NCBI GenBank assembly: GCA_038129265.1
Contig: JAYPLD010000004.1
Location: forward strand, 1-28,904
Source: Crocinitomicaceae bacterium
Lineage (GTDB): Bacteria; Bacteroidota; Bacteroidia; Flavobacteriales_D; Parvicellaceae
DNA length: 28,904 bases
Direction of reading: 5' to 3'
Shown piece after piece: positions 15,290 through 22,968 of this stretch. Positions within the stretch are counted from its first letter, which is position 1. The number at the start of each line of letters is the position of its first letter. Under the pieces are notes generated by a model. The model did not search any database. It was not told the origin of the DNA and worked only from the letters and a program-made list of their open reading frames with translations. The position numbers were made by a program, and so were the translations under genes.

Positions 15290-16297
15290 CTAATATTTAC
15301 TGGCTACCTTTTTAATTTCCTCTGCTATTTGCTCTCTTAACGATAATGGTGCAATCACTTCACAGTCACTACCATAACCTAAAATGGTCATTTTTAGTTC
15401 ATAAGTTACCAGTAAAAAGTAGGAAAAAAGATGGTCTCCATTATTATGTACTTCACTCAACTTTTGAGAATGATGTAATGGCTGTGATGTAAGGTATTTT
15501 GAAAGAATATTGTTGGTTTTAAGTATTATTTCTTGAGGTTTCTCATCAAAAACCGTAATACCTATAGAGTGCTGAAAAAAATAATCTGGATTAAAAGTAG
15601 CATCTACAGAAAATTGATTTTCCAACGTTTGCAAGTTTGAAATTCTATCCAGTCCAAATGTGATTACTTTATTTTTTAACTCACTTTTTCCTATGAGATA
15701 CCATCTGTTACGATATTCTTTTAGCAAATACGGATGAACTCGCCTAACCGTTTTTACATCTTTGATATAATTATAATATTCAAACTGCAATACATTTCTT
15801 TTCTTGATCGCTTCTAAAACAGATTCTAAATATTCATTCCCTGAAATAGTAGGTAATGTTTCGAATTGAATGTTATTTTCTGTGTTATTGAATTTTTGTT
15901 GAGAGGTAACTGCTCTATCTAATATTTTATCAATTGCAAACTGATACTGACTAAATAGACTTGTGCTTTTAAATTGATGTAAAATGGTAGATGCTGCCTT
16001 GATAGCCGAAATGTCTTTCTCCGTAAGTGGAACATCATCCATCGTAAATTCATCATTCGTATAGTAATATCCTTTTTCTCTTTTGCTGTAAGATATGGGG
16101 GCGTCATGCTCCATTCTCATAGCAAAAATGTCTTTTTCAATAGTGGAGTGGCAAATATGTAAACCTTCTGAAGTGCCATAAATTTCTTCCTCACATGCTT
16201 GCCTTAATTGTTCTTTTGTTGGGTAAGGATTATATTCATTTCGAATAGATCTATCTATGATTCTATATCTTAATAAAGCATTCTTAATGGCTGGCAT
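15290..16297 (-). CDS. WYL domain transcriptional regulator (wHTH-WYL-WCX)
   Basis: N-terminal KNALLRYRIID...STIEKDI..MR wHTH. WYL core VHPYLLKEYRNRWYLIG ... FGLDRI. WCX tail ILGYGSDCEVIAPLSLR. Confidence 0.93.
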   Translation of the reverse strand: MPAIKNALLRYRIIDRSIRNEYNPYPTKEQLRQACEEEIYGTSEGLHICHSTIEKDIFAMRMEHDAPISYSKREKGYYYTNDEFTMDDVPLTEKDISAIKAASTILHQFKSTSLFSQYQFAIDKILDRAVTSQQKFNNTENNIQFETLPTISGNEYLESVLEAIKKRNVLQFEYYNYIKDVKTVRRVHPYLLKEYRNRWYLIGKSELKNKVITFGLDRISNLQTLENQFSVDATFNPDYFFQHSIGITVFDEKPQEIILKTNNILSKYLTSQPLHHSQKLSEVHNNGDHLFSYFLLVTYELKMTILGYGSDCEVIAPLSLREQIAEEIKKVASKY

Positions 16298-16300
16298 TAT

Positions 16301-18031
16301 CTAAAATTGAAAATAAATAAATGGTTGTAGGCTTGTTGAAGCAATTTGGTAAATTAAAAATACCACTAGCAAAGATGTTAAAATCTGAAAACCTACATGT
16401 AGATTGGCAAAATAATTTCGATAATAACTTTTTACTTTTTCAGGAATAAAATGAATTATAAAGCCTATTAAAATGACCAATAACACCTCGTAATATGCAC
16501 TAACCACATCCGAGATTAATGCCCATCTAAAATCAAATATCAATTGATAAAGCATTTCATTTGCAGTGAACCATTCAGAAAGGATGTTATGACCACCGTC
16601 CATATCTTCCCAAGAATTGGTGGATCCGCTTCTAAACCAAATTCTCGTAAATGAGACAAAGTTAAAGGTGATTAGTATCCCCCAAGCCCTATTCCACCAT
16701 TTAGATTTATTACCCCAGGGGCTGAATTTTCTCCAAATTTTATAAATAACTATGCCCAATCCATTTAGACCTCCCCAGAGAACAAAATTCCAACTTGCTC
16801 CATGCCATAAGCCTCCCAATAACATGGTAAGCATTATGTTGACATTAGTAATATACCAGCCCTTAAACGATGGAATAAATTCCCCTAAAAGTTGAACAAG
16901 AAAAATTATAGATAATATTAAAAAGAGTAATACCCATGAACCACTTATTAAAAAAACAAATAGTACAATAAAGGAAAGTGCAATTACGCTGAATAACGAT
17001 CCTCTTCGGTTTCCTCCCATTGGGATATACAGGTAATCTTTTAACCAAGTTGACAAAGAAATATGCCATCGTTTCCAAAAATTACCACAATTATCAGCTT
17101 TGTATGGAGAATTGAAATTTTTTGGTAGATAAAACCCCATAATCATAGCAATTCCAATAGCAATATCCGTATACCCCGAAAAATCAGCATAAACTTGCAG
17201 TGAATAGCCATAAAGAGCCAATAAATTTTCTAGACCTGAGAACATGCTTGGGTTATCAAAAACTCTATCCACAAAATTAACTGCGATGTAATCTGCCAAA
17301 AGAAACTTTTTAAGCAGGCCATTTAGAATCCAAAACACAGCCATTCCAAATTCTTTTTTTGTGACGGCATATGGCTTGTAAATTTGAGGTATAAATTCTG
17401 ATGCCCTCACGATTGGCCCTGCAACCAACTGAGGAAAAAACGAGACATAAAAAGCAAAGTCAATTACATGAGAAACAGGCTTTAACTTCTTTCTGTAAAT
17501 ATCAATGGCATAGGACATTGTTTGAAAAGTATAGAATGATATACCAATTGGTAATAATATTTGATCTACTCGAAAGGTAGTGCCTGTAAGCTTATTGGTG
17601 GCAAGTGCAAAATGATTTATGGGGTGCCAAGAAGAATCAAAAATGGCATTGAAAGAATCCGCAAAGAAATAGGCATATTTGAAATACACTAATAAGGTTA
17701 GATTTAATGTAACACTCACTGCTAACCAAAGAGTGGATTTTAGTCCATCTAAATTTCGATAAATTCTTTGCCCAATTACAAAATCAAGGATGGTAGAAAA
17801 GAGTAAAATGGAGAAGAAGAACCCACTGGTTTTGTAATAGAAATATATGCTCACCAAGAAGAGAAATAAACTTCTAATTCGAAGCCTTTTGTGAAATAAG
17901 CTGTAACCTGCTAAAACAACAAGAAAGAATATCCAAAACGGATACTCCGTAAAAATCATTGGATGTTCCCCCTGATCTATAAAAGGAGAAAAGATCTTTG
18001 CTACAAATTTAGAAACGTCAAATTCTCCCAT
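16301..18031 (-). CDS. MBOAT family O-acyltransferase, AlgI/PatA type, with fused C-terminal FIYFQF motif
   Basis: LPIGISFYTFQ, SFFPQLVAGPIVRA, YADFSGYTD, NFNSPY, FWKRWHISLS.W.KDYLYIP, GGLWHGA (His410, codon 16802-16804), terminal PFIYFQF-stop. Confidence 0.93.
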   Translation of the reverse strand: MGEFDVSKFVAKIFSPFIDQGEHPMIFTEYPFWIFFLVVLAGYSLFHKRLRIRSLFLFLVSIYFYYKTSGFFFSILLFSTILDFVIGQRIYRNLDGLKSTLWLAVSVTLNLTLLVYFKYAYFFADSFNAIFDSSWHPINHFALATNKLTGTTFRVDQILLPIGISFYTFQTMSYAIDIYRKKLKPVSHVIDFAFYVSFFPQLVAGPIVRASEFIPQIYKPYAVTKKEFGMAVFWILNGLLKKFLLADYIAVNFVDRVFDNPSMFSGLENLLALYGYSLQVYADFSGYTDIAIGIAMIMGFYLPKNFNSPYKADNCGNFWKRWHISLSTWLKDYLYIPMGGNRRGSLFSVIALSFIVLFVFLISGSWVLLFLILSIIFLVQLLGEFIPSFKGWYITNVNIMLTMLLGGLWHGASWNFVLWGGLNGLGIVIYKIWRKFSPWGNKSKWWNRAWGILITFNFVSFTRIWFRSGSTNSWEDMDGGHNILSEWFTANEMLYQLIFDFRWALISDVVSAYYEVLLVILIGFIIHFIPEKVKSYYRNYFANLHVGFQILTSLLVVFLIYQIASTSLQPFIYFQF

Positions 18032-19244
18032 TTTTTTCTATGAATTCTTTGTATGATTTAATGAAGGCTTCAAAAAACAAATCTCCAGTTAATTTATAAC
18101 CTTTGGTGGTGAAATGAATTTTATCAGATTTAGCAAGACCGTTTTCTTCCCATTTAACGATGCTATTCATCCCCCCCATAACAGAAAATAAATCCCAAAT
18201 TACGCCATCGTGTTTTTTAGCTAACTTATACATTGTTTTTTTAGCTTCAATCACACGTTTATTTACCACTTTCTTCTTATAATAACTATCGTTATTAGTC
18301 GTAAATAAAAAATTGGCATCTGGAAATTGATCTTTAATCAGATTGATTAATGTGTCATAATTTTTAAAATAGGTTTCCGGTAAGAATGAAGGTTCATATG
18401 CGTCATTGATTCCAATAGAAAAGATGATCAAATCAGGGTTGACTAGATCAAGTTGATCCATAAAATATTCGCATCTTAAATAGCTAGGAACACTAGCCCC
18501 ATTTACTCCAACTGAATGATACGTAATTCCCTTTAATTGTGATGAAAAATTTAGTCCAAATAGTGAAAATTTCCCTTTTTCATGATTTTCTCTTTCAATC
18601 CGTACTATAACTGAGTCAACGAGGTTAGATAACACAAATGATTGTCTATCCTCCCTCAGCTCTATTGAAACAGTCGAGTCGGTAAGTATATCTATACAAT
18701 GATTATGTAAAGAATCATCTACTAAAAAGTCAATTTGATCAAAAAAACAATTCACGCAATGTTCTTTGTTTACATAAAAAGTAATTAATGATGTAGAGTC
18801 CATTAACTCTGCTCTAGCCCCTAAAAGACCAAATGGTGAATCGTGATAAGAAACCGAATTTCTAAAGCCATTCCATTCTCCACTGTGAGTTGTTTTTAAA
18901 TACGGTGATGCATTGGATTTTATTAACTTAAACGGGAAATACAAGCCTCTTGAAGCACCATTATAAGGAACTATATGCTGAAAGTGATCTCTTAATCTAT
19001 TAGACCAAACGTCTGCTTGAATGTGTGAACCACCAAATTGGATGATATTAATTTCCTCTCCTCCATAAAGCCATTGATTACGTATTTTGCTTAAAAAGCT
19101 ACCCCACTTTTTTTTATTAAAAATAACCAGTTCATTATCCTTTTCGTCTATAAAATTATATTGCGAATGATCGTGTGGATAATGCTGAGCGTGAGAAAAA
19201 GAACAAATCAACAAGCCAAAATATATACTTAGAAAAATCTTCAT
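18018..19244 (-). CDS. SGNH/GDSL family protein (PatB/Ape/AlgJ-like)
   Basis: Signal peptide. Block I GGSHIQAD, block II GVNGAS, block III GINDA, block V DKIHF. Confidence 0.85.
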   Translation of the reverse strand: MKIFLSIYFGLLICSFSHAQHYPHDHSQYNFIDEKDNELVIFNKKKWGSFLSKIRNQWLYGGEEINIIQFGGSHIQADVWSNRLRDHFQHIVPYNGASRGLYFPFKLIKSNASPYLKTTHSGEWNGFRNSVSYHDSPFGLLGARAELMDSTSLITFYVNKEHCVNCFFDQIDFLVDDSLHNHCIDILTDSTVSIELREDRQSFVLSNLVDSVIVRIERENHEKGKFSLFGLNFSSQLKGITYHSVGVNGASVPSYLRCEYFMDQLDLVNPDLIIFSIGINDAYEPSFLPETYFKNYDTLINLIKDQFPDANFLFTTNNDSYYKKKVVNKRVIEAKKTMYKLAKKHDGVIWDLFSVMGGMNSIVKWEENGLAKSDKIHFTTKGYKLTGDLFFEAFIKSYKEFIEKNGRI

Positions 19245-19246
19245 TC

Positions 19247-20671
19247 TTATTTATTCTCCTTGTAAAAAGTGTAACATTCCATTAAATCTGCTATGAACAT
19301 ATCTGCTACTTCCCTTGCCCCTTTATTTGTAAAATGAATGTAATCTCTTGCTGCTAGGGGTGGTTTCAATTTAACCCAATCTTGAATGGATCCTTCTCCT
19401 CCCATATTGAGGTAGGTATCCCAATAGCAAGAATTTGTTTCAAAAGCTGCTTTTTTAAGGGCTTGACGAACTTCATTAATATAAGGATAACTTATAAAAG
19501 ATGTGGACTCTTTTTTAGCCATATCTGCGGGACCTATCACAATAACTTGAGCCTTTGGATTTATTCTTTTCAACTTTTTGATTTGGCTTTTGAAGTAATT
19601 TCCATATCGTGCGCTGCGCTCAATGCTTTTCATGTGGGGTATAGCATTACCACCAAATTCTAACAAGAATAAATCCGGTGATAATTGAGTTAACATTTCT
19701 GAAAGACTGGTTTTATCAATTCTCGCAAATTCAGTTCCTGATGCCCCTCTTAAAGGTATATTATCAACTACCACTCCATTATTTCCTTCCAAAGCAATAC
19801 CATATACTAGTGGTGAAGACGTAGATTTCATTTTAATTTCAAAATAAGATGGTGCTCTATTAAAACTGATCGACTTTTTTTGAATTTGAGATGAAGGAGC
19901 AATGGTGTCCACGCGAATAATGGAATCAGCTAATAGAAATGAAAATATAGTGGTATCCTGATTTGTGAAAAAGATGTCAAAATGGGTATAGTTACGACAG
20001 TGTTTGTACGATTTAGTTGGTTTTCCAATTTTAATCCATCCTTCATAAATTAAAGACGAATCTTTTTTTATTGGTTCAATTTCACAAAATGAAAATAGCG
20101 CTCCATACTTTTTATGTTTTACTATGGTATCAACATAAGGGCCGAATCCAGTTCTACGGATCCAATTGGAAGAATATTCATTTTTTATACTGATTTTTCG
20201 AGTTGCAGGAATTACAGCATATGCACCGGCCCCTAGCCCTCCAAAGTCTTTTTGTAACCTTTCTCTCAATCTGCCTGAAATTCGATCTGCTTCAATCTGT
20301 GAATCTCCGTAGTGCATTACGCGGACCTTTTTATTTTTTGCTTTTTCCAGTTTTTTAAAAAAGGGAAATAATAGGGTTATATCGTTTTGAGGAAATTGGA
20401 TTTTCTTTTCTGCGTTTAGAACCGAATCCTCGTACTTTTTTCTAATTAATTCCTCTACTTTTTTAATACTGTCTGCCAAAAACTTTTCTCTTGCAATTAT
20501 GGAATCTAAATTGATTTTATTTTTCAATTCAATGGGTTCTGTGTTTAGATTCGAATCTACATATGCTGTTTTATCAAAAAAACGAAAGTTTACCTGACCA
20601 ATATGAATACCATTTTCAGGAAAAATGAAAAAGACCATCATTAAAGCGGCAAACAATGAACAGAAATACAA
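19247..20671 (-). CDS. Membrane-anchored SGNH/GDSL family protein (PatB/AlgX-like); start codon uncertain
   Basis: N-terminal TM segment. Block I GDSQIEAD, block II LRGASG, block III FGGN, block V DYIHF. Start is TTG 20671 or a non-canonical ATA 20692 (see findings). Confidence 0.82.
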   Translation of the reverse strand: MYFCSLFAALMMVFFIFPENGIHIGQVNFRFFDKTAYVDSNLNTEPIELKNKINLDSIIAREKFLADSIKKVEELIRKKYEDSVLNAEKKIQFPQNDITLLFPFFKKLEKAKNKKVRVMHYGDSQIEADRISGRLRERLQKDFGGLGAGAYAVIPATRKISIKNEYSSNWIRRTGFGPYVDTIVKHKKYGALFSFCEIEPIKKDSSLIYEGWIKIGKPTKSYKHCRNYTHFDIFFTNQDTTIFSFLLADSIIRVDTIAPSSQIQKKSISFNRAPSYFEIKMKSTSSPLVYGIALEGNNGVVVDNIPLRGASGTEFARIDKTSLSEMLTQLSPDLFLLEFGGNAIPHMKSIERSARYGNYFKSQIKKLKRINPKAQVIVIGPADMAKKESTSFISYPYINEVRQALKKAAFETNSCYWDTYLNMGGEGSIQDWVKLKPPLAARDYIHFTNKGAREVADMFIADLMECYTFYKENK

Positions 20672-20688
20672 TAGTGCGTAGTGGGGCT

Positions 20689-21867
20689 TTATGGATTTTT
20701 CTTCTTTAATATTATTTTAAAATTTTGTTTTTGATATGGGTTGTATTCATTAATCTCTCTAACTGAGCAGTCATATTTTTTAGCAATTTCCCAAAACTGT
20801 AATGACTTATCTTTTTGAAATGTATGTGTTTCGAAACTATCACTATTTTCATTTCTACCCACAATAATATTTTGATCCACATAAATTAATGAAGAACTTA
20901 GGTTATTCCAGTTCATCAAATTCCTTACTGATACATTGTATTTTAAGGCAATTTTTCCTAATACATCTCCTTTAACCACTTTATGAATTTTATCTTCTGT
21001 TAATAGGTCACTTTGAAAAAATGAATTTTCATTCAATGAATCTTGTAACGATGAAATTTTGGACTCATTTTTCTTTAGAAAGTCTCCTACATCCTTGCTT
21101 AGCAAAATAGGATAATCTGCTGGCAATACATTCCTGAGAAGTACCTGATTATTTTGCAAAATTAGTTCGAAGTCTAGTTTTTTAAAATCATATATAGCAT
21201 CAAAACTAAGAGGCTTTGAAAATCTAAAATAGGATTGGTCTGTTTTTGTATTGTTATCATATATTTTATCGTAATGAAAACGGGCAGAATCTAAACTCAA
21301 AAGCATATCAATTTCTTGGATATATGGAATTAGTAAATCTGGTCTTTTTTCCAGATTTAAAACAAAATTTGGAGATATTAAAAAAGCAAGTAGAGTGGCT
21401 TTCTTTTGACCATAAATTTTCCAAAGACGATTCAATTCATTGGCAGCCGCTATTGTTGATTTTTTATAATTCAGCCTTTCATCAATAAAATAATTCATGA
21501 TTAAGCCATTGTTCAGAGCGGTAATGTAATTTAAATTCCATACCCCAACGCCTAAATGACTGGGAGATTTTAGATTAGAATAAGATGTAATGATGGGGAT
21601 TTTGGAAAAGAAGGAAGGTAAATCAAATGGCTCAAATACAGAATCCATATAATTAACCATGTCTAAATGTTCACAAATCAAGGATTTTATTTTTCTTTTC
21701 TCTTTTTTACTAACTAGAGAAGCAGCGATAGAAGAATGAAATTTAATATGACACGTATTGTCTTCATTAAACTGTAGATCATTCAAAGGGAAATAAGCAC
21801 TTTGCGCGTTTATCAACTGGTTAATGATGATGAAAAATAATATCCCAATTCCACATGATTTATACAC
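20689..21867 (-). CDS. MltD-like lytic transglycosylase-LysM protein, apparently catalytically degenerate
   Basis: GTG start, signal peptide. SLT-like segment LPSFFSKIPIITS...GVGVWNL...IDERLNYKKSTIAAANEL..LWKIYG...LLAF. One clear LysM (HKVVKGDVLGKIALKYNVSVRNLMNWNNL) and a degenerate second. Confidence 0.8.
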   Translation of the reverse strand: MYKSCGIGILFFIIINQLINAQSAYFPLNDLQFNEDNTCHIKFHSSIAASLVSKKEKRKIKSLICEHLDMVNYMDSVFEPFDLPSFFSKIPIITSYSNLKSPSHLGVGVWNLNYITALNNGLIMNYFIDERLNYKKSTIAAANELNRLWKIYGQKKATLLAFLISPNFVLNLEKRPDLLIPYIQEIDMLLSLDSARFHYDKIYDNNTKTDQSYFRFSKPLSFDAIYDFKKLDFELILQNNQVLLRNVLPADYPILLSKDVGDFLKKNESKISSLQDSLNENSFFQSDLLTEDKIHKVVKGDVLGKIALKYNVSVRNLMNWNNLSSSLIYVDQNIIVGRNENSDSFETHTFQKDKSLQFWEIAKKYDCSVREINEYNPYQKQNFKIILKKKNP

Positions 21868-21871
21868 TTTA

Positions 21872-21879
21872 TAAATTTG
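21872..21879 (+). promoter_or_regulatory. Candidate -7 promoter element for the DUF3078 gene
   Basis: Exact TAnnTTTG (TAAATTTG) upstream of ATG 21934/21955. No clear -33 element. Confidence 0.4.
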
Positions 21880-21933
21880 ACTTATTTAAGTGAAAAGAAC
21901 ATATAAATTCAAAATAATTTTTAACAGTTAAAA

Positions 21934-22968
21934 ATGGAAAATCAAGTAAAATCAATGTATTATAAATTCATACTGATTGCTTTTCTATTCAACATCTTAC
22001 AAATTCATACTCAAGATTTAAAAGATTGGCAAAAAAAAATCACCCTACCAGACACCACTTTTAATGTGGATTCTAGCTATTGGATTAAAGGTTCTATTTT
22101 TAATATTGGATTTAACCGAGTTGGTCTCTACAACTGGGCTGGTGGTGGACAGAACTCCATGTCTGTCCAAGGATTAACAAACAATTATCTATTACTAAAA
22201 CATCGTAAAATTTCATGGATGAACCAACTCACCTTATCTTATGGAATTATTCGAAATGGATTTGGAGATAGTATTCCTTGGCTAAAGAATGATGATCGTA
22301 TAGAACTGACATCAAAATTTGGGAGAAAAACAAAATATAAATGGGATTATTCCATCTTATTTAATTTCAGAACTCAATTTGAAGAGGGATTTAACTCCCC
22401 TGATGATGTTACTGAAAACAACTACTTTTCAAAGTTTTTCTCTCCAGCATATCCCCTTTTGGCAATGGGTTTTGATTATAAAAAAGATCAAGAATTTTCT
22501 TGTTTTTTGTCGCCAGCCACACTTAAATCAACCGTTGTACTAGATGAGTTTTTATATTCACAAGGTGTTTTTGGGGTAGAAGCCGGTAGGAAATTAAGGG
22601 TAGAGGCCGGTGGTTATTTAAACCTAAACTATCGAAAAGCTTCATTTTTAAACGTAAGAGACTTAAACCTAAGATCTAATCTAAGTTTATTTAGCAATTA
22701 CGTGGAACAACCTGAAAATATCGATGTTACCTGGGAAACGTTAATTTCTTACAAGCTTAAAAAATTATTTAGCATCACCTTTTCATCTTATCTAATTTAT
22801 GATCATGACACTAAAATACCTAGGTTTAACAAGGACGGTAGTCCAGTTCACTTGTTAAATAGCCAAGGCTTCCCTTATTTGGACGAAAACGGAAATAAAA
22901 TTCAAAAGAGGGGTGCTGCAGTTCAGTTTAAAGAAGTGCTTACACTTGGAATTTTATTGTCTTTTTAG
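21934..22968 (+). CDS. DUF3078 family outer-membrane beta-barrel protein
   Basis: Signal peptide (ATG 21955 is an alternative start). YNWAGGG.NS, KNDDRIELTSKFG, LFNFRTQF..G, FFSPAY, SLFSNY...PENIDV.WE, QFKEVL.LG. Terminal Phe. Confidence 0.8.
   Translation: MENQVKSMYYKFILIAFLFNILQIHTQDLKDWQKKITLPDTTFNVDSSYWIKGSIFNIGFNRVGLYNWAGGGQNSMSVQGLTNNYLLLKHRKISWMNQLTLSYGIIRNGFGDSIPWLKNDDRIELTSKFGRKTKYKWDYSILFNFRTQFEEGFNSPDDVTENNYFSKFFSPAYPLLAMGFDYKKDQEFSCFLSPATLKSTVVLDEFLYSQGVFGVEAGRKLRVEAGGYLNLNYRKASFLNVRDLNLRSNLSLFSNYVEQPENIDVTWETLISYKLKKLFSITFSSYLIYDHDTKIPRFNKDGSPVHLLNSQGFPYLDENGNKIQKRGAAVQFKEVLTLGILLSF

What the first reader, a model, noticed from the sequence alone, without database searches (positions are those of the whole stretch)
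21358..21666. MltD paralog with the catalytic Glu replaced by Thr (pseudo-transglycosylase)
Seen: KIPIITSYSN aligns by eye to the MltD-type KYLPIIESALN, putting Thr94 (codon ACA, 21586-88) at the catalytic Glu. ACA is at least two changes from a Glu codon, so a read error is unlikely. GLWQ has become GVWN and AYN has become AFL, while DER and KST..A are kept, the ORF is intact and LysM is retained. Inference: a maintained pseudoenzyme that binds glycan strands, shielding them from active lytic transglycosylases or presenting them to the acylation machinery.
Basis: partly seen in the sequence, partly recalled or inferred. Interest (0 to 1): 0.7.

Follow-up and report, generated by a model that had tools for sequence, protein, structure and literature searches.

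The report
Dead MltD heading wall-acetylation operon
This gene encodes a copy of the cell-wall-cutting enzyme MltD that has lost its catalytic residue and most of its sugar-binding groove. It is nevertheless kept under selection in front of peptidoglycan O-acetylation genes in 29 marine Flavobacteriales genomes, so it most likely helps those enzymes without catalysing anything itself.

Summary
Observation confirmed. ORF 20689-21867 (-) is an MltD homologue: the clade profile matches P. aeruginosa MltD at E 3e-25, and the model matches it at Z 14. Thr94 (ACA, 21586-88) sits at the catalytic Glu. The Q of GLWQ, the AYN motif and the Tyr that orients the Glu are also gone. DER, KST..A and LysM remain.

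The loss is ancient and maintained. All 29 Glu-less copies examined, from three families, form one clade (99/100). The Glu site varies (T/C/I/L/N/Q/V/S), every ORF is intact, and dN/dS is about 0.2. Every copy lies directly upstream of SGNH-SGNH-MBOAT, the Bacteroidota-type O-acetylpeptidoglycan cluster (ape1b-ape1c-patA). All 13 MltD genes examined outside that cluster keep the Glu.

No LysM-bearing active MltD was found in this genus; only a 319-aa Glu-bearing SLT protein.

Best reading: a non-catalytic, LysM-targeted adaptor of the acetylation machinery. A complex model places the former cleft against the soluble Ape1-like SGNH protein (score 0.70, best control 0.07). Where the dead MltD is absent, that SGNH protein sometimes carries its own LysM.

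Earlier notes of this scan report the same arrangement in other Bacteroidota genomes. No paper describing it was found.

The parts
20689..21867 (-). Glu-less MltD-like ORF (pMltD), 392 aa, GTG start, stop codon included
21799..21867 (-). N-terminal signal-peptide-like segment (residues 1-23, hydrophobic core then INAQ). There is no lipobox Cys in the usual position.
   Evidence: Read from the translation. Helix 3-20 in the model. Inference; no signal-peptide predictor was run.
21292..21705 (-). SLT-like (family 1D lytic transglycosylase) domain, residues about 55-192, with degenerate catalytic motifs
   Evidence: VIA-align Z 14.0 to 8rhe_B over model residues 47-270; Foldseek E 2e-10; column analysis
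21586..21588 (-). Thr94 codon ACA at the position of the catalytic Glu (E144 of P. aeruginosa MltD)
   Evidence: PMC11327851
21097..21285 (-). Beta-alpha-alpha-beta module (residues about 195-257) equivalent to the LysM packed on the catalytic domain of P. aeruginosa MltD. N240 is invariant.
   Evidence: Secondary structure; aligned to 8rhe through residue 270; PMC11327851
20860..20985 (-). Canonical LysM domain (residues 295-336), the most constrained part of the protein
   Evidence: Pfam E 2.2e-14. dN/dS 0.04-0.18 in unsaturated pairs. Core residues invariant in the clade.
20698..20835 (-). Second, degenerate LysM-like module (residues about 345-390). The GDxLW motif is eroded in this genus and better kept in genera g6 and g10.
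19247..20671 (-). SGNH_A: membrane-anchored Ape1-family SGNH protein (ape1b-like), 17 nt after the pMltD stop
   Evidence: Pfam Lipase_GDSL_2; best PDB match N. meningitidis Ape1 4K3U/4K7J at E 8e-14 (identity of 4K7J)
18018..19244 (-). SGNH_B: exported soluble Ape1-family SGNH protein (ape1c-like), the predicted binding partner of pMltD
   Evidence: (4K3U at E 6.5e-18)
16301..18031 (-). PatA-like MBOAT ending in the acyl-shuttle motif F-I-Y-F-Q-F. It overlaps SGNH_B by 14 nt.
   Evidence: Pfam MBOAT; translation; FxYxxF motif described in PMC12148441

Best explanation
The gene encodes a catalytically dead descendant of the family-1D lytic transglycosylase MltD, here called pMltD. It arose by duplication of an active MltD and joined the Bacteroidota-type O-acetylpeptidoglycan cluster (two Ape1-family SGNH proteins plus a PatA-like MBOAT). 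It then lost the general acid/base Glu and the polar lining of the sugar groove, but kept the fold and a canonical LysM domain. Proposed mechanism: pMltD is exported to the periplasm, anchors to peptidoglycan through LysM, and uses the remodelled former cleft to dock the soluble Ape1-like esterase/transferase SGNH_B. That would target or stabilise O-acetyl turnover on the glycan strand. Shown here: homology, loss of motifs, clade-wide retention under purifying selection, and strict gene linkage. Inferred: lack of lytic activity, peptidoglycan as the substrate of the cluster, direct binding to SGNH_B, and a targeting or stabilising effect.
For: 1. Homology and dead site. The clade profile matches MltD chain 8rhe_A at E 3.3e-25. 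The AF2 model (pLDDT 81.5) matches 8RHE/8RHF at Foldseek E 2e-10 and Z 14.0 over 215 residues. In the clade, E94, Q111, Y162, N163, Y185, E181, Y144 and the YFPxFE block are lost, while P91, S95, G108, W110, D129, R131, T138 and A141 are kept. No new acidic residue is conserved.
2. Maintenance. The 13 Glu-less sequences form one clade at 99/100 support. All ORFs are intact. dN/dS is about 0.20, against 0.05-0.07 for SGNH_A and 0.08 for DUF3078.
3. Linkage. In all 29 genomes (4 genera of family f1, plus f4 and f10) the Glu-less gene lies immediately upstream of SGNH_A on the same strand. All 13 MltD genes outside that position keep the ES motif.
4. The cluster looks like peptidoglycan O-acetylation. 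Both SGNH proteins match only Ape1 among solved structures. The MBOAT ends in an FxYxxF motif. The ape1b-ape1c-patA arrangement and heavily O-acetylated Bacteroides peptidoglycan are published (PMC1199599).
5. Complex model of pMltD 55-280 with SGNH_A and SGNH_B. The model supports binding but does not show it. Score 0.70, best of 3 controls 0.07. That mark was reached by 58 of 80 solved complexes and 2 of 110 mismatched pairs; the counts hold only roughly here, because my own alignments and three chains were used. The runs agree in at least 75% of contacts and the partner's pLDDT is at least 78. All contacts listed for the best run are with SGNH_B. On pMltD they include clade-specific conserved Y114, S165 and P166 in the former motif II/III region.
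6. Complementary domain distribution. In OAP clusters without pMltD, the SGNH_B-type protein carries a C-terminal LysM in L029, L031 and L034 (Pfam E 4e-13 to 2e-14). No SGNH_B next to a pMltD does.
7. Precedent. The Neisseria SLT-family enzyme LtgA forms a complex with Ape1 and stabilises its esterase activity on a substrate that LtgA does not use (bioRxiv 10.1101/607697).
Against: Nothing was measured biochemically. Inactivity is inferred from residues alone. In this species E185 aligns with the Tyr that lies next to the catalytic Glu in P. aeruginosa MltD. It is D or K in congeners, and that stretch of the alignment is gappy.
The complex score comes from a model with shallow custom alignments. 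The SGNH_B N-terminal segment in the predicted interface (QxYPH) is conserved only within family f1 and is absent from pMltD-bearing families f4 and f10. Overlap of clade-specific conserved residues with the interface is modest: 3 of 9, against about 1.6 expected.
dN/dS is 3-4 times higher than in the neighbouring genes. Two Glu-less MltD-like proteins from metagenomes are not shown to be next to SGNH genes: P0263 is flanked by unrelated genes, and the contig of P0271 ends at the gene. The link to OAP clusters is therefore not universal.
That the cluster acts on peptidoglycan is inferred from homology and from LysM.
Confidence: 0.6

Rival explanations
1. pMltD is a free glycan-strand binder that shields peptidoglycan from active lytic transglycosylases or competes with them. 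It would act independently of any contact with the SGNH enzymes.
For: The fold and LysM are retained. This genus has few lytic transglycosylases: only a 319-aa SLT protein was found, plus MltG in a congener.
Against: The residues that hold sugars in subsites -2 to +4 of P. aeruginosa MltD are not conserved in the clade. O-acetylation itself already blocks lytic transglycosylases (bioRxiv 10.1101/607697). Strict operon linkage with SGNH_A/B in 29 of 29 genomes is unexplained if it acts alone.
Confidence: 0.1
2. The protein is still an enzyme. Another residue (for example D129/E130, or E185 in this species) or a different chemistry replaces the lost Glu, so it cleaves or modifies glycan strands.
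For: D129-E130-R131 is strongly conserved. E185 aligns with the Tyr next to the catalytic Glu in P. aeruginosa MltD. dN/dS of about 0.2 shows constraint on the domain.
Against: D-x-R is equally conserved in active MltD, so it is not compensatory. Position 185 reads E, D, K, N, Q, W or Y across the clade. The Glu site itself holds T, C, I, L, N, Q, V or S. Motifs II and III and the orienting Tyr are lost together. All characterised family-1 enzymes use the single Glu (PMC11327851).
Confidence: 0.07
3. The four-gene module acylates a different GlcNAc-containing envelope polymer (an exopolysaccharide or capsule, in the AlgI/AlgJ/AlgX manner). pMltD would be its LysM-type carbohydrate-binding subunit.
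For: MBOAT-SGNH pairs acylate several polymers (PMC12148441). LysM also binds chitin-like glycans (PDB matches). The genomes carry several other MBOAT paralogs.
Against: Both SGNH proteins match only O-acetylpeptidoglycan esterase Ape1 among solved structures. The same gene trio is the published Bacteroides/Porphyromonas OAP cluster. The accessory protein derives from a peptidoglycan enzyme. No glycosyltransferase or export genes flank the module.
Confidence: 0.1
4. It is a decaying relic with no function of its own, carried along by the operon.
For: It evolves 3-4 times faster than its neighbours. The second LysM is eroded in this genus. Pfam SLT falls below threshold.
Against: There are no stops or frameshifts in 29 genomes that span three families. 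dN/dS is about 0.2 in every region. LysM1 is nearly invariant. Clade-specific residues are newly conserved (S88, L112, Y114, F162, S165, P166, Q275).
Confidence: 0.03

Closest known systems
MltD, family 1D lytic transglycosylase (P. aeruginosa MltD, PDB 8RHE/8RHF/8RHI; E. coli MltD)
   Same: Same fold and module order: catalytic-type domain, a LysM packed against it, a linker, then free LysM modules. P91, S95, G108, W110, the D-E-R motif and the KST..A motif are kept.
   Different: It lacks the catalytic Glu of the ES motif, the Q of GLWQ, the Y and N of AYNxG, the Tyr that orients the Glu, and the N-terminal helices that build the + subsites. It is about 100 residues shorter at the N-terminus. 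It is encoded inside an O-acetylation operon.
Bacteroides/Porphyromonas-type O-acetylpeptidoglycan (OAP) cluster: patA, ape1b, ape1c (Weadge, Pfeffer and Clarke 2005, PMC1199599)
   Same: Same trio: a PatA-like MBOAT with an FxYxxF tail plus two Ape1-family SGNH proteins.
   Different: The published clusters have no MltD-like gene. Here, and in 28 related genomes, a dead MltD is the first gene.
LtgA-Ape1 complex of Neisseria meningitidis (bioRxiv 10.1101/607697; published as eLife PMC7083599)
   Same: An SLT-fold protein is paired with an Ape1-type esterase. LtgA stabilises Ape1 activity independently of its own catalysis. This is what pMltD is proposed to do.
   Different: LtgA is an active enzyme of another subfamily and is not encoded with ape1. 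Binding of pMltD to SGNH_B is only predicted.
Degenerate LytM factors EnvC and NlpD, catalytically dead peptidase-fold activators of cell-wall amidases (established knowledge, not tested here)
   Same: The same logic: a peptidoglycan hydrolase fold that has lost catalysis and serves as a regulator or adaptor of another wall enzyme. NlpD also carries LysM.
   Different: The fold (M23 peptidase) and the target enzyme are unrelated. No activation has been shown for pMltD.
SpmX, a co-opted phage lysozyme domain used for localisation (bioRxiv 10.1101/418723, title and abstract only)
   Same: A muramidase-type domain is repurposed for a non-lytic housekeeping role.
   Different: It belongs to a different fold family. 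From my own knowledge, SpmX keeps its catalytic Glu.

Membership tests
Family 1 / 1D lytic transglycosylase (GH23, Pfam SLT PF01464; MltD) | Goose-lysozyme-like SLT fold with detectable homology to MltD | tested here: met
   Clade profile against 8rhe_A at E 3.3e-25. Foldseek E 2e-10. Z 14.0, 215 residues, rmsd 5.2.
Family 1 / 1D lytic transglycosylase (GH23, Pfam SLT PF01464; MltD) | [quoted passage not shown] | tested here: not met
   Thr94 here. T, C, I, L, N, Q, V or S across 29 genomes. The role of E144 is described in PMC11327851.
Family 1 / 1D lytic transglycosylase (GH23, Pfam SLT PF01464; MltD) | Motif II G-L-W-Q in the clamping loop | tested here: not met
   G and W are invariant, but the Q is N, G, A or E in 8 of the 9 clade representatives and kept only in the f4 member.
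Family 1 / 1D lytic transglycosylase (GH23, Pfam SLT PF01464; MltD) | Motif III A-Y-N-x-G | tested here: not met
   It reads A-F-[LIWY]-x-S-P in the clade. Y becomes F, and N and G are lost.
Family 1 / 1D lytic transglycosylase (GH23, Pfam SLT PF01464; MltD) | Pfam SLT gathering score | tested here: not met
   14.9 bits against a cut-off of 21.3 for this protein. Basal clade members pass with 23-36 bits, but only from profile position 25-36 onward.
Family 1 / 1D lytic transglycosylase (GH23, Pfam SLT PF01464; MltD) | Formation of 1,6-anhydro-MurNAc products from peptidoglycan | not testable with these tools
   This needs an enzyme assay.
LysM peptidoglycan-binding module (PF01476) | Match over the Pfam threshold with conserved core residues | tested here: met
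   53.5 bits against a cut-off of 20.9, residues 295-336. Z 9.3 and rmsd 1.0 to 4uz2.
Bacteroidota-type OAP cluster (patA + ape1b + ape1c) | MBOAT with a conserved His and a C-terminal FxYxxF acyl-shuttle motif | tested here: met
   Pfam MBOAT at E 4e-22. The C-terminus reads F-I-Y-F-Q-F. The motif is defined in PMC12148441.
Bacteroidota-type OAP cluster (patA + ape1b + ape1c) | Two Ape1-family SGNH proteins with an inserted domain between block I and the rest of the fold | tested here: met
   Best PDB matches are N. meningitidis Ape1 at E 8e-14 and 6.5e-18. The GDSQ and GGSH block I motifs are separated from the remaining SGNH blocks by about 160 residues.
Bacteroidota-type OAP cluster (patA + ape1b + ape1c) | O-acetylation of MurNAc C6 that depends on the cluster | not testable with these tools
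   This needs muropeptide analysis. It has been measured for Bacteroides (PMC1199599) but not for this lineage.

The most novel reading that the evidence does not exclude
The dismantled active-site cleft of a lytic transglycosylase has been converted into a docking surface for an Ape1-type O-acetylpeptidoglycan esterase/transferase. The result would be a two-protein, LysM-targeted acetyl-editing complex. The SLT fold would then be a dedicated non-catalytic regulator of wall O-acetylation, much as dead LytM factors regulate amidases, and the LtgA-Ape1 partnership of Neisseria would be one case of a wider, ancient coupling.
Probability: 0.35. Interest if true: 0.75.

Novelty: new variant of a known kind. 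Interest (0 to 1): 0.6.

Why it matters
Lytic transglycosylases and O-acetylation are antagonistic controls on peptidoglycan turnover, because O-acetyl at MurNAc C6 blocks the transglycosylase reaction. How the acetylating and de-acetylating enzymes are aimed at the right strands is unknown, and it is especially unclear in Bacteroidota, where both SGNH enzymes look like the esterase. A conserved, selected, catalytically dead MltD wired into the operon gives a concrete candidate for that targeting or regulatory subunit. It also adds a well-sampled natural example of a pseudoenzyme to the SLT/GH23 family. The idea is directly testable with three soluble proteins. It occurs in abundant uncultured marine Flavobacteriales, and earlier notes of this scan report it in other Bacteroidota.

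Tried and rejected
1. Active-site overlay. The AF2 model's coordinates cannot be read with these tools, so the check for another acidic residue in the site was made only through alignment columns.
2. phmmer of residues 50-290 alone against the PDB gave only chance hits. The clade profile was needed.
3. The search for related loci with the clade alignment failed for lack of a conserved block. With the single protein it found only close relatives, named as uncultured Flavobacteriales/Bacteroidota MAGs and one single-cell genome.
4. Co-occurrence test of the predicted interface. The SGNH_B N-terminal QxYPH motif is absent from clusters without pMltD, but it is also absent from pMltD-bearing families f4 and f10. 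The test is inconclusive.
5. Expression. Short contigs from marine metatranscriptome libraries of two studies lie on all four genes at 95-100% identity. One spans the pMltD/SGNH_A junction (20601-20768). DNA carry-over cannot be excluded and contigs do not show a transcript, so this is a weak hint only.
6. The sigma-70 promoter and terminator scan gave fewer hits than shuffled sequence and is not suited to Bacteroidota promoters.
7. Searches of the own genome for MltG, SLT_2, MltA and RlpA-type families found nothing. MltG is present in a congener, so these blanks probably reflect the 93% complete assembly and are not used as evidence.
8. Literature searches for a Glu-less or pseudo lytic transglycosylase in OAP clusters found no description.

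Full report
**The observation**

The finding lies in a 392-aa ORF on the minus strand, 20689-21867. Codon 94 is + strand tgt at 21586-88, which is ACA (Thr) on the coding strand.

Pfam finds a clear LysM at residues 295-336 (E 2e-14). It finds SLT only below threshold (14.9 bits against 21.3), and that match starts after the catalytic region.

Alignment with MltD-type proteins from the protein database and from related genomes puts Thr94 at the Glu of the 'VESALN' block. GVWN aligns with GLWQ, and AFL with AYN. DER and KST..A are kept.

A profile of the Glu-less clade matches the solved P. aeruginosa MltD (8rhe_A) at E 3.3e-25, with the clade consensus 'llPlvisgsn' opposite 'LLPVIESAYN'. An AlphaFold2 model (mean pLDDT 81.5) has MltD as its best structural match: Foldseek E 2e-10 and VIA-align Z 14.0 over 215 residues. 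MltF, Slt70, MltE and MltC follow at Z 10-12.5.

**How far the active site has gone**

I compared nine representatives of the Glu-less clade with twelve Glu-bearing MltD proteins of the same order, column by column. I read the result against the P. aeruginosa MltD structure paper (PMC11327851).

The clade has lost more than the Glu (E144 in P. aeruginosa MltD):
- the Q of GLWQ (Q162);
- the Y and N of AYN (Y214, N215);
- the Tyr that hydrogen-bonds the Glu (Y249);
- Y195 and E245;
- the N-terminal YFPxFE block, which belongs to the helices that form subsites +2 to +4.

Kept are P91, S95, G108, W110, L122, D129, R131, T138, A141 and the LysM core. No acidic residue is newly conserved, and D-x-R is just as conserved in the active enzymes.

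Residues newly conserved only in the clade are S88, L112, Y114, F162, S165, P166 and Q275. I could not make a coordinate overlay because the model's coordinates are not exposed. E185 of this species aligns with Y249, but that position is D or K in congeners.

**Distribution and selection**

Among 41 relatives and then 301 genomes sampled across the order, a clear score gap separates 29 genomes that carry this form. They are 7 of genus g1, 11 of g5, 3 of g6 and 5 of g10 (all family f1), 2 of family f4 and 1 of family f10.

Every one lacks the Glu. The site reads T, C, I, L, N, Q, V or S. Every ORF is intact.

A maximum-likelihood tree puts 13 Glu-less sequences in one clade with 99/100 support, on a long stem, within the order's MltD proteins. 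This fits a single loss after duplication.

G016 and G027 carry both a Glu-less and an active LysM-MltD. In genera g1, g5 and g6 only the Glu-less copy was found, plus a roughly 320-aa SLT protein with an intact ES motif and no LysM.

Nei-Gojobori dN/dS among the g1 species is about 0.20 overall. In unsaturated pairs it is 0.16-0.28 in the SLT-like part and 0.04-0.18 in LysM. The neighbouring genes give 0.05-0.07 (SGNH_A) and 0.08 (DUF3078). The gene is under purifying selection, though a more relaxed one than its neighbours.

A profile search of 1.8 billion representative proteins found 15 further Glu-less cluster representatives.

**Context**

In all 29 genomes the gene sits directly upstream of, and on the same strand as, three genes: a membrane-anchored SGNH protein, a soluble SGNH protein and a roughly 580-aa MBOAT. 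In the window the spacers are 17 nt, 2 nt and a 14-nt overlap.

None of 13 Glu-bearing MltD genes examined is next to such genes.

Both SGNH proteins match only N. meningitidis Ape1 (4K3U/4K7J) and two related entries among solved structures. The MBOAT ends in F-I-Y-F-Q-F, the FxYxxF acyl-shuttle motif shown for PatA.

This trio is the Bacteroides/Porphyromonas OAP cluster, patA-ape1b-ape1c, of Weadge et al. 2005. That paper also measured 27-69% O-acetylation in Bacteroides peptidoglycan. The published clusters have no MltD-like gene.

The trio also occurs without the dead MltD in at least six other lineages of the order.

**Mechanism**

Two results point to a protein-protein role.

First, a complex prediction of pMltD residues 55-280 with both SGNH proteins supports binding; it does not show it. 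The score is 0.70 and the best of 3 controls is 0.07. That mark was reached by 58 of 80 solved complexes and 2 of 110 mismatched pairs, and the counts hold only roughly here because my own alignments and three chains were used. The runs agree in at least 75% of contacts, and the partner's pLDDT is at least 78.

All contacts listed for the best run are with the soluble SGNH_B. Replacing SGNH_B with an unrelated protein drops the score to 0.01. On pMltD the contacts fall on residues 105-129 and 164-181, which is the former clamping-loop and motif III region. They include clade-specific Y114, S165 and P166. On SGNH_B the contacts flank the N-terminal ends of the core strands. From the usual SGNH topology I infer that this is away from the catalytic Ser.

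Second, in OAP clusters that lack the dead MltD, the SGNH_B-type protein carries its own C-terminal LysM in three cases (L029, L031, L034). No SGNH_B beside a dead MltD does. LysM targeting therefore seems to be supplied in cis in some lineages and in trans in others.

There is a published precedent. Neisseria LtgA, an SLT-family enzyme, forms a complex with Ape1 and stabilises its esterase activity on a substrate that LtgA does not use (bioRxiv 10.1101/607697).

Weaknesses are as follows:
- The interface's N-terminal SGNH_B motif is specific to family f1.
- The enrichment of conserved residues in the interface is modest.
- Two Glu-less MltD-like proteins from metagenomes are not shown to be next to SGNH genes, although a third, more distant one is.

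**Verdict**

Its core inference, a maintained pseudo-transglycosylase tied to the acylation genes, is supported. The idea that the dead cleft holds or shields glycan strands is not supported.

The best reading is a LysM-anchored, non-catalytic adaptor of the Bacteroidota peptidoglycan O-acetylation machinery (confidence 0.6). It is a new variant of known kinds: MltD, the OAP cluster, and dead-hydrolase regulators.

Earlier notes of this scan describe the same arrangement in at least five other Bacteroidota genomes, and they agree with what I found independently. No paper describing it was found in the searchable library.

Noticed in passing
L034 3670-5148 (-) and 6554-8173 (-) (G031:C8): A second MBOAT-linked module in one relative has an SGNH_B-like protein fused to a C-terminal LysM (Pfam E 4e-13). 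The main OAP clusters of G031 (L029) and G018 (L031) show the same fusion.
   Followed up: partly
L037 645-1985 and L038 2823-4187 (metagenome contigs): Two Glu-less MltD-like proteins (I or L at the Glu site) are not shown to be next to SGNH genes. P0263 is followed by IMPDH and rotamase genes. The contig of P0271 ends at the gene, with NusB upstream. Loss of the Glu in MltD-like proteins may be wider than the OAP-linked clade.
   Followed up: partly
L035 4510-8712 (metagenome contig): A distant Glu-less MltD-like protein (P0255) is followed by two GDSL/SGNH genes and then by a HAD hydrolase where the MBOAT would be expected.
   Followed up: no
window 15290-16297 (-); L015 1234-2247: A WYL/WCX-domain gene starts 3 nt after the MBOAT stop. 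Its orthologue (55% identity) lies about 5 kb from the active MltD of G010, together with the DUF3078 gene. This hints that the pMltD locus descends from the ancestral MltD neighbourhood.
   Followed up: partly
window 21934-22968 (+): A DUF3078 gene is transcribed divergently, 66 nt from the pMltD start. This pairing is conserved in genera g1 and g10. The gene also lies near the active MltD in G010 and G013.
   Followed up: partly
G016:C3:253393-255065: In G016 the cluster's MBOAT matches in three pieces with stop codons between them. The cause could be a frameshift, a pseudogene or an assembly error. This is one of the genomes that also keeps an active MltD.
   Followed up: no
own genome G000, whole assembly: No MltG/YceG, SLT_2, MltA or DPBB_1 match was found in the 93% complete assembly. 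MltG is present in the congeneric G007, so at least that blank is probably an assembly gap.
   Followed up: partly
window 20601-20768 and 21106-21977: Short contigs from marine metatranscriptome libraries of two studies match pMltD and its junction with SGNH_A at 95-100% identity. This is compatible with expression but is not proof.
   Followed up: partly
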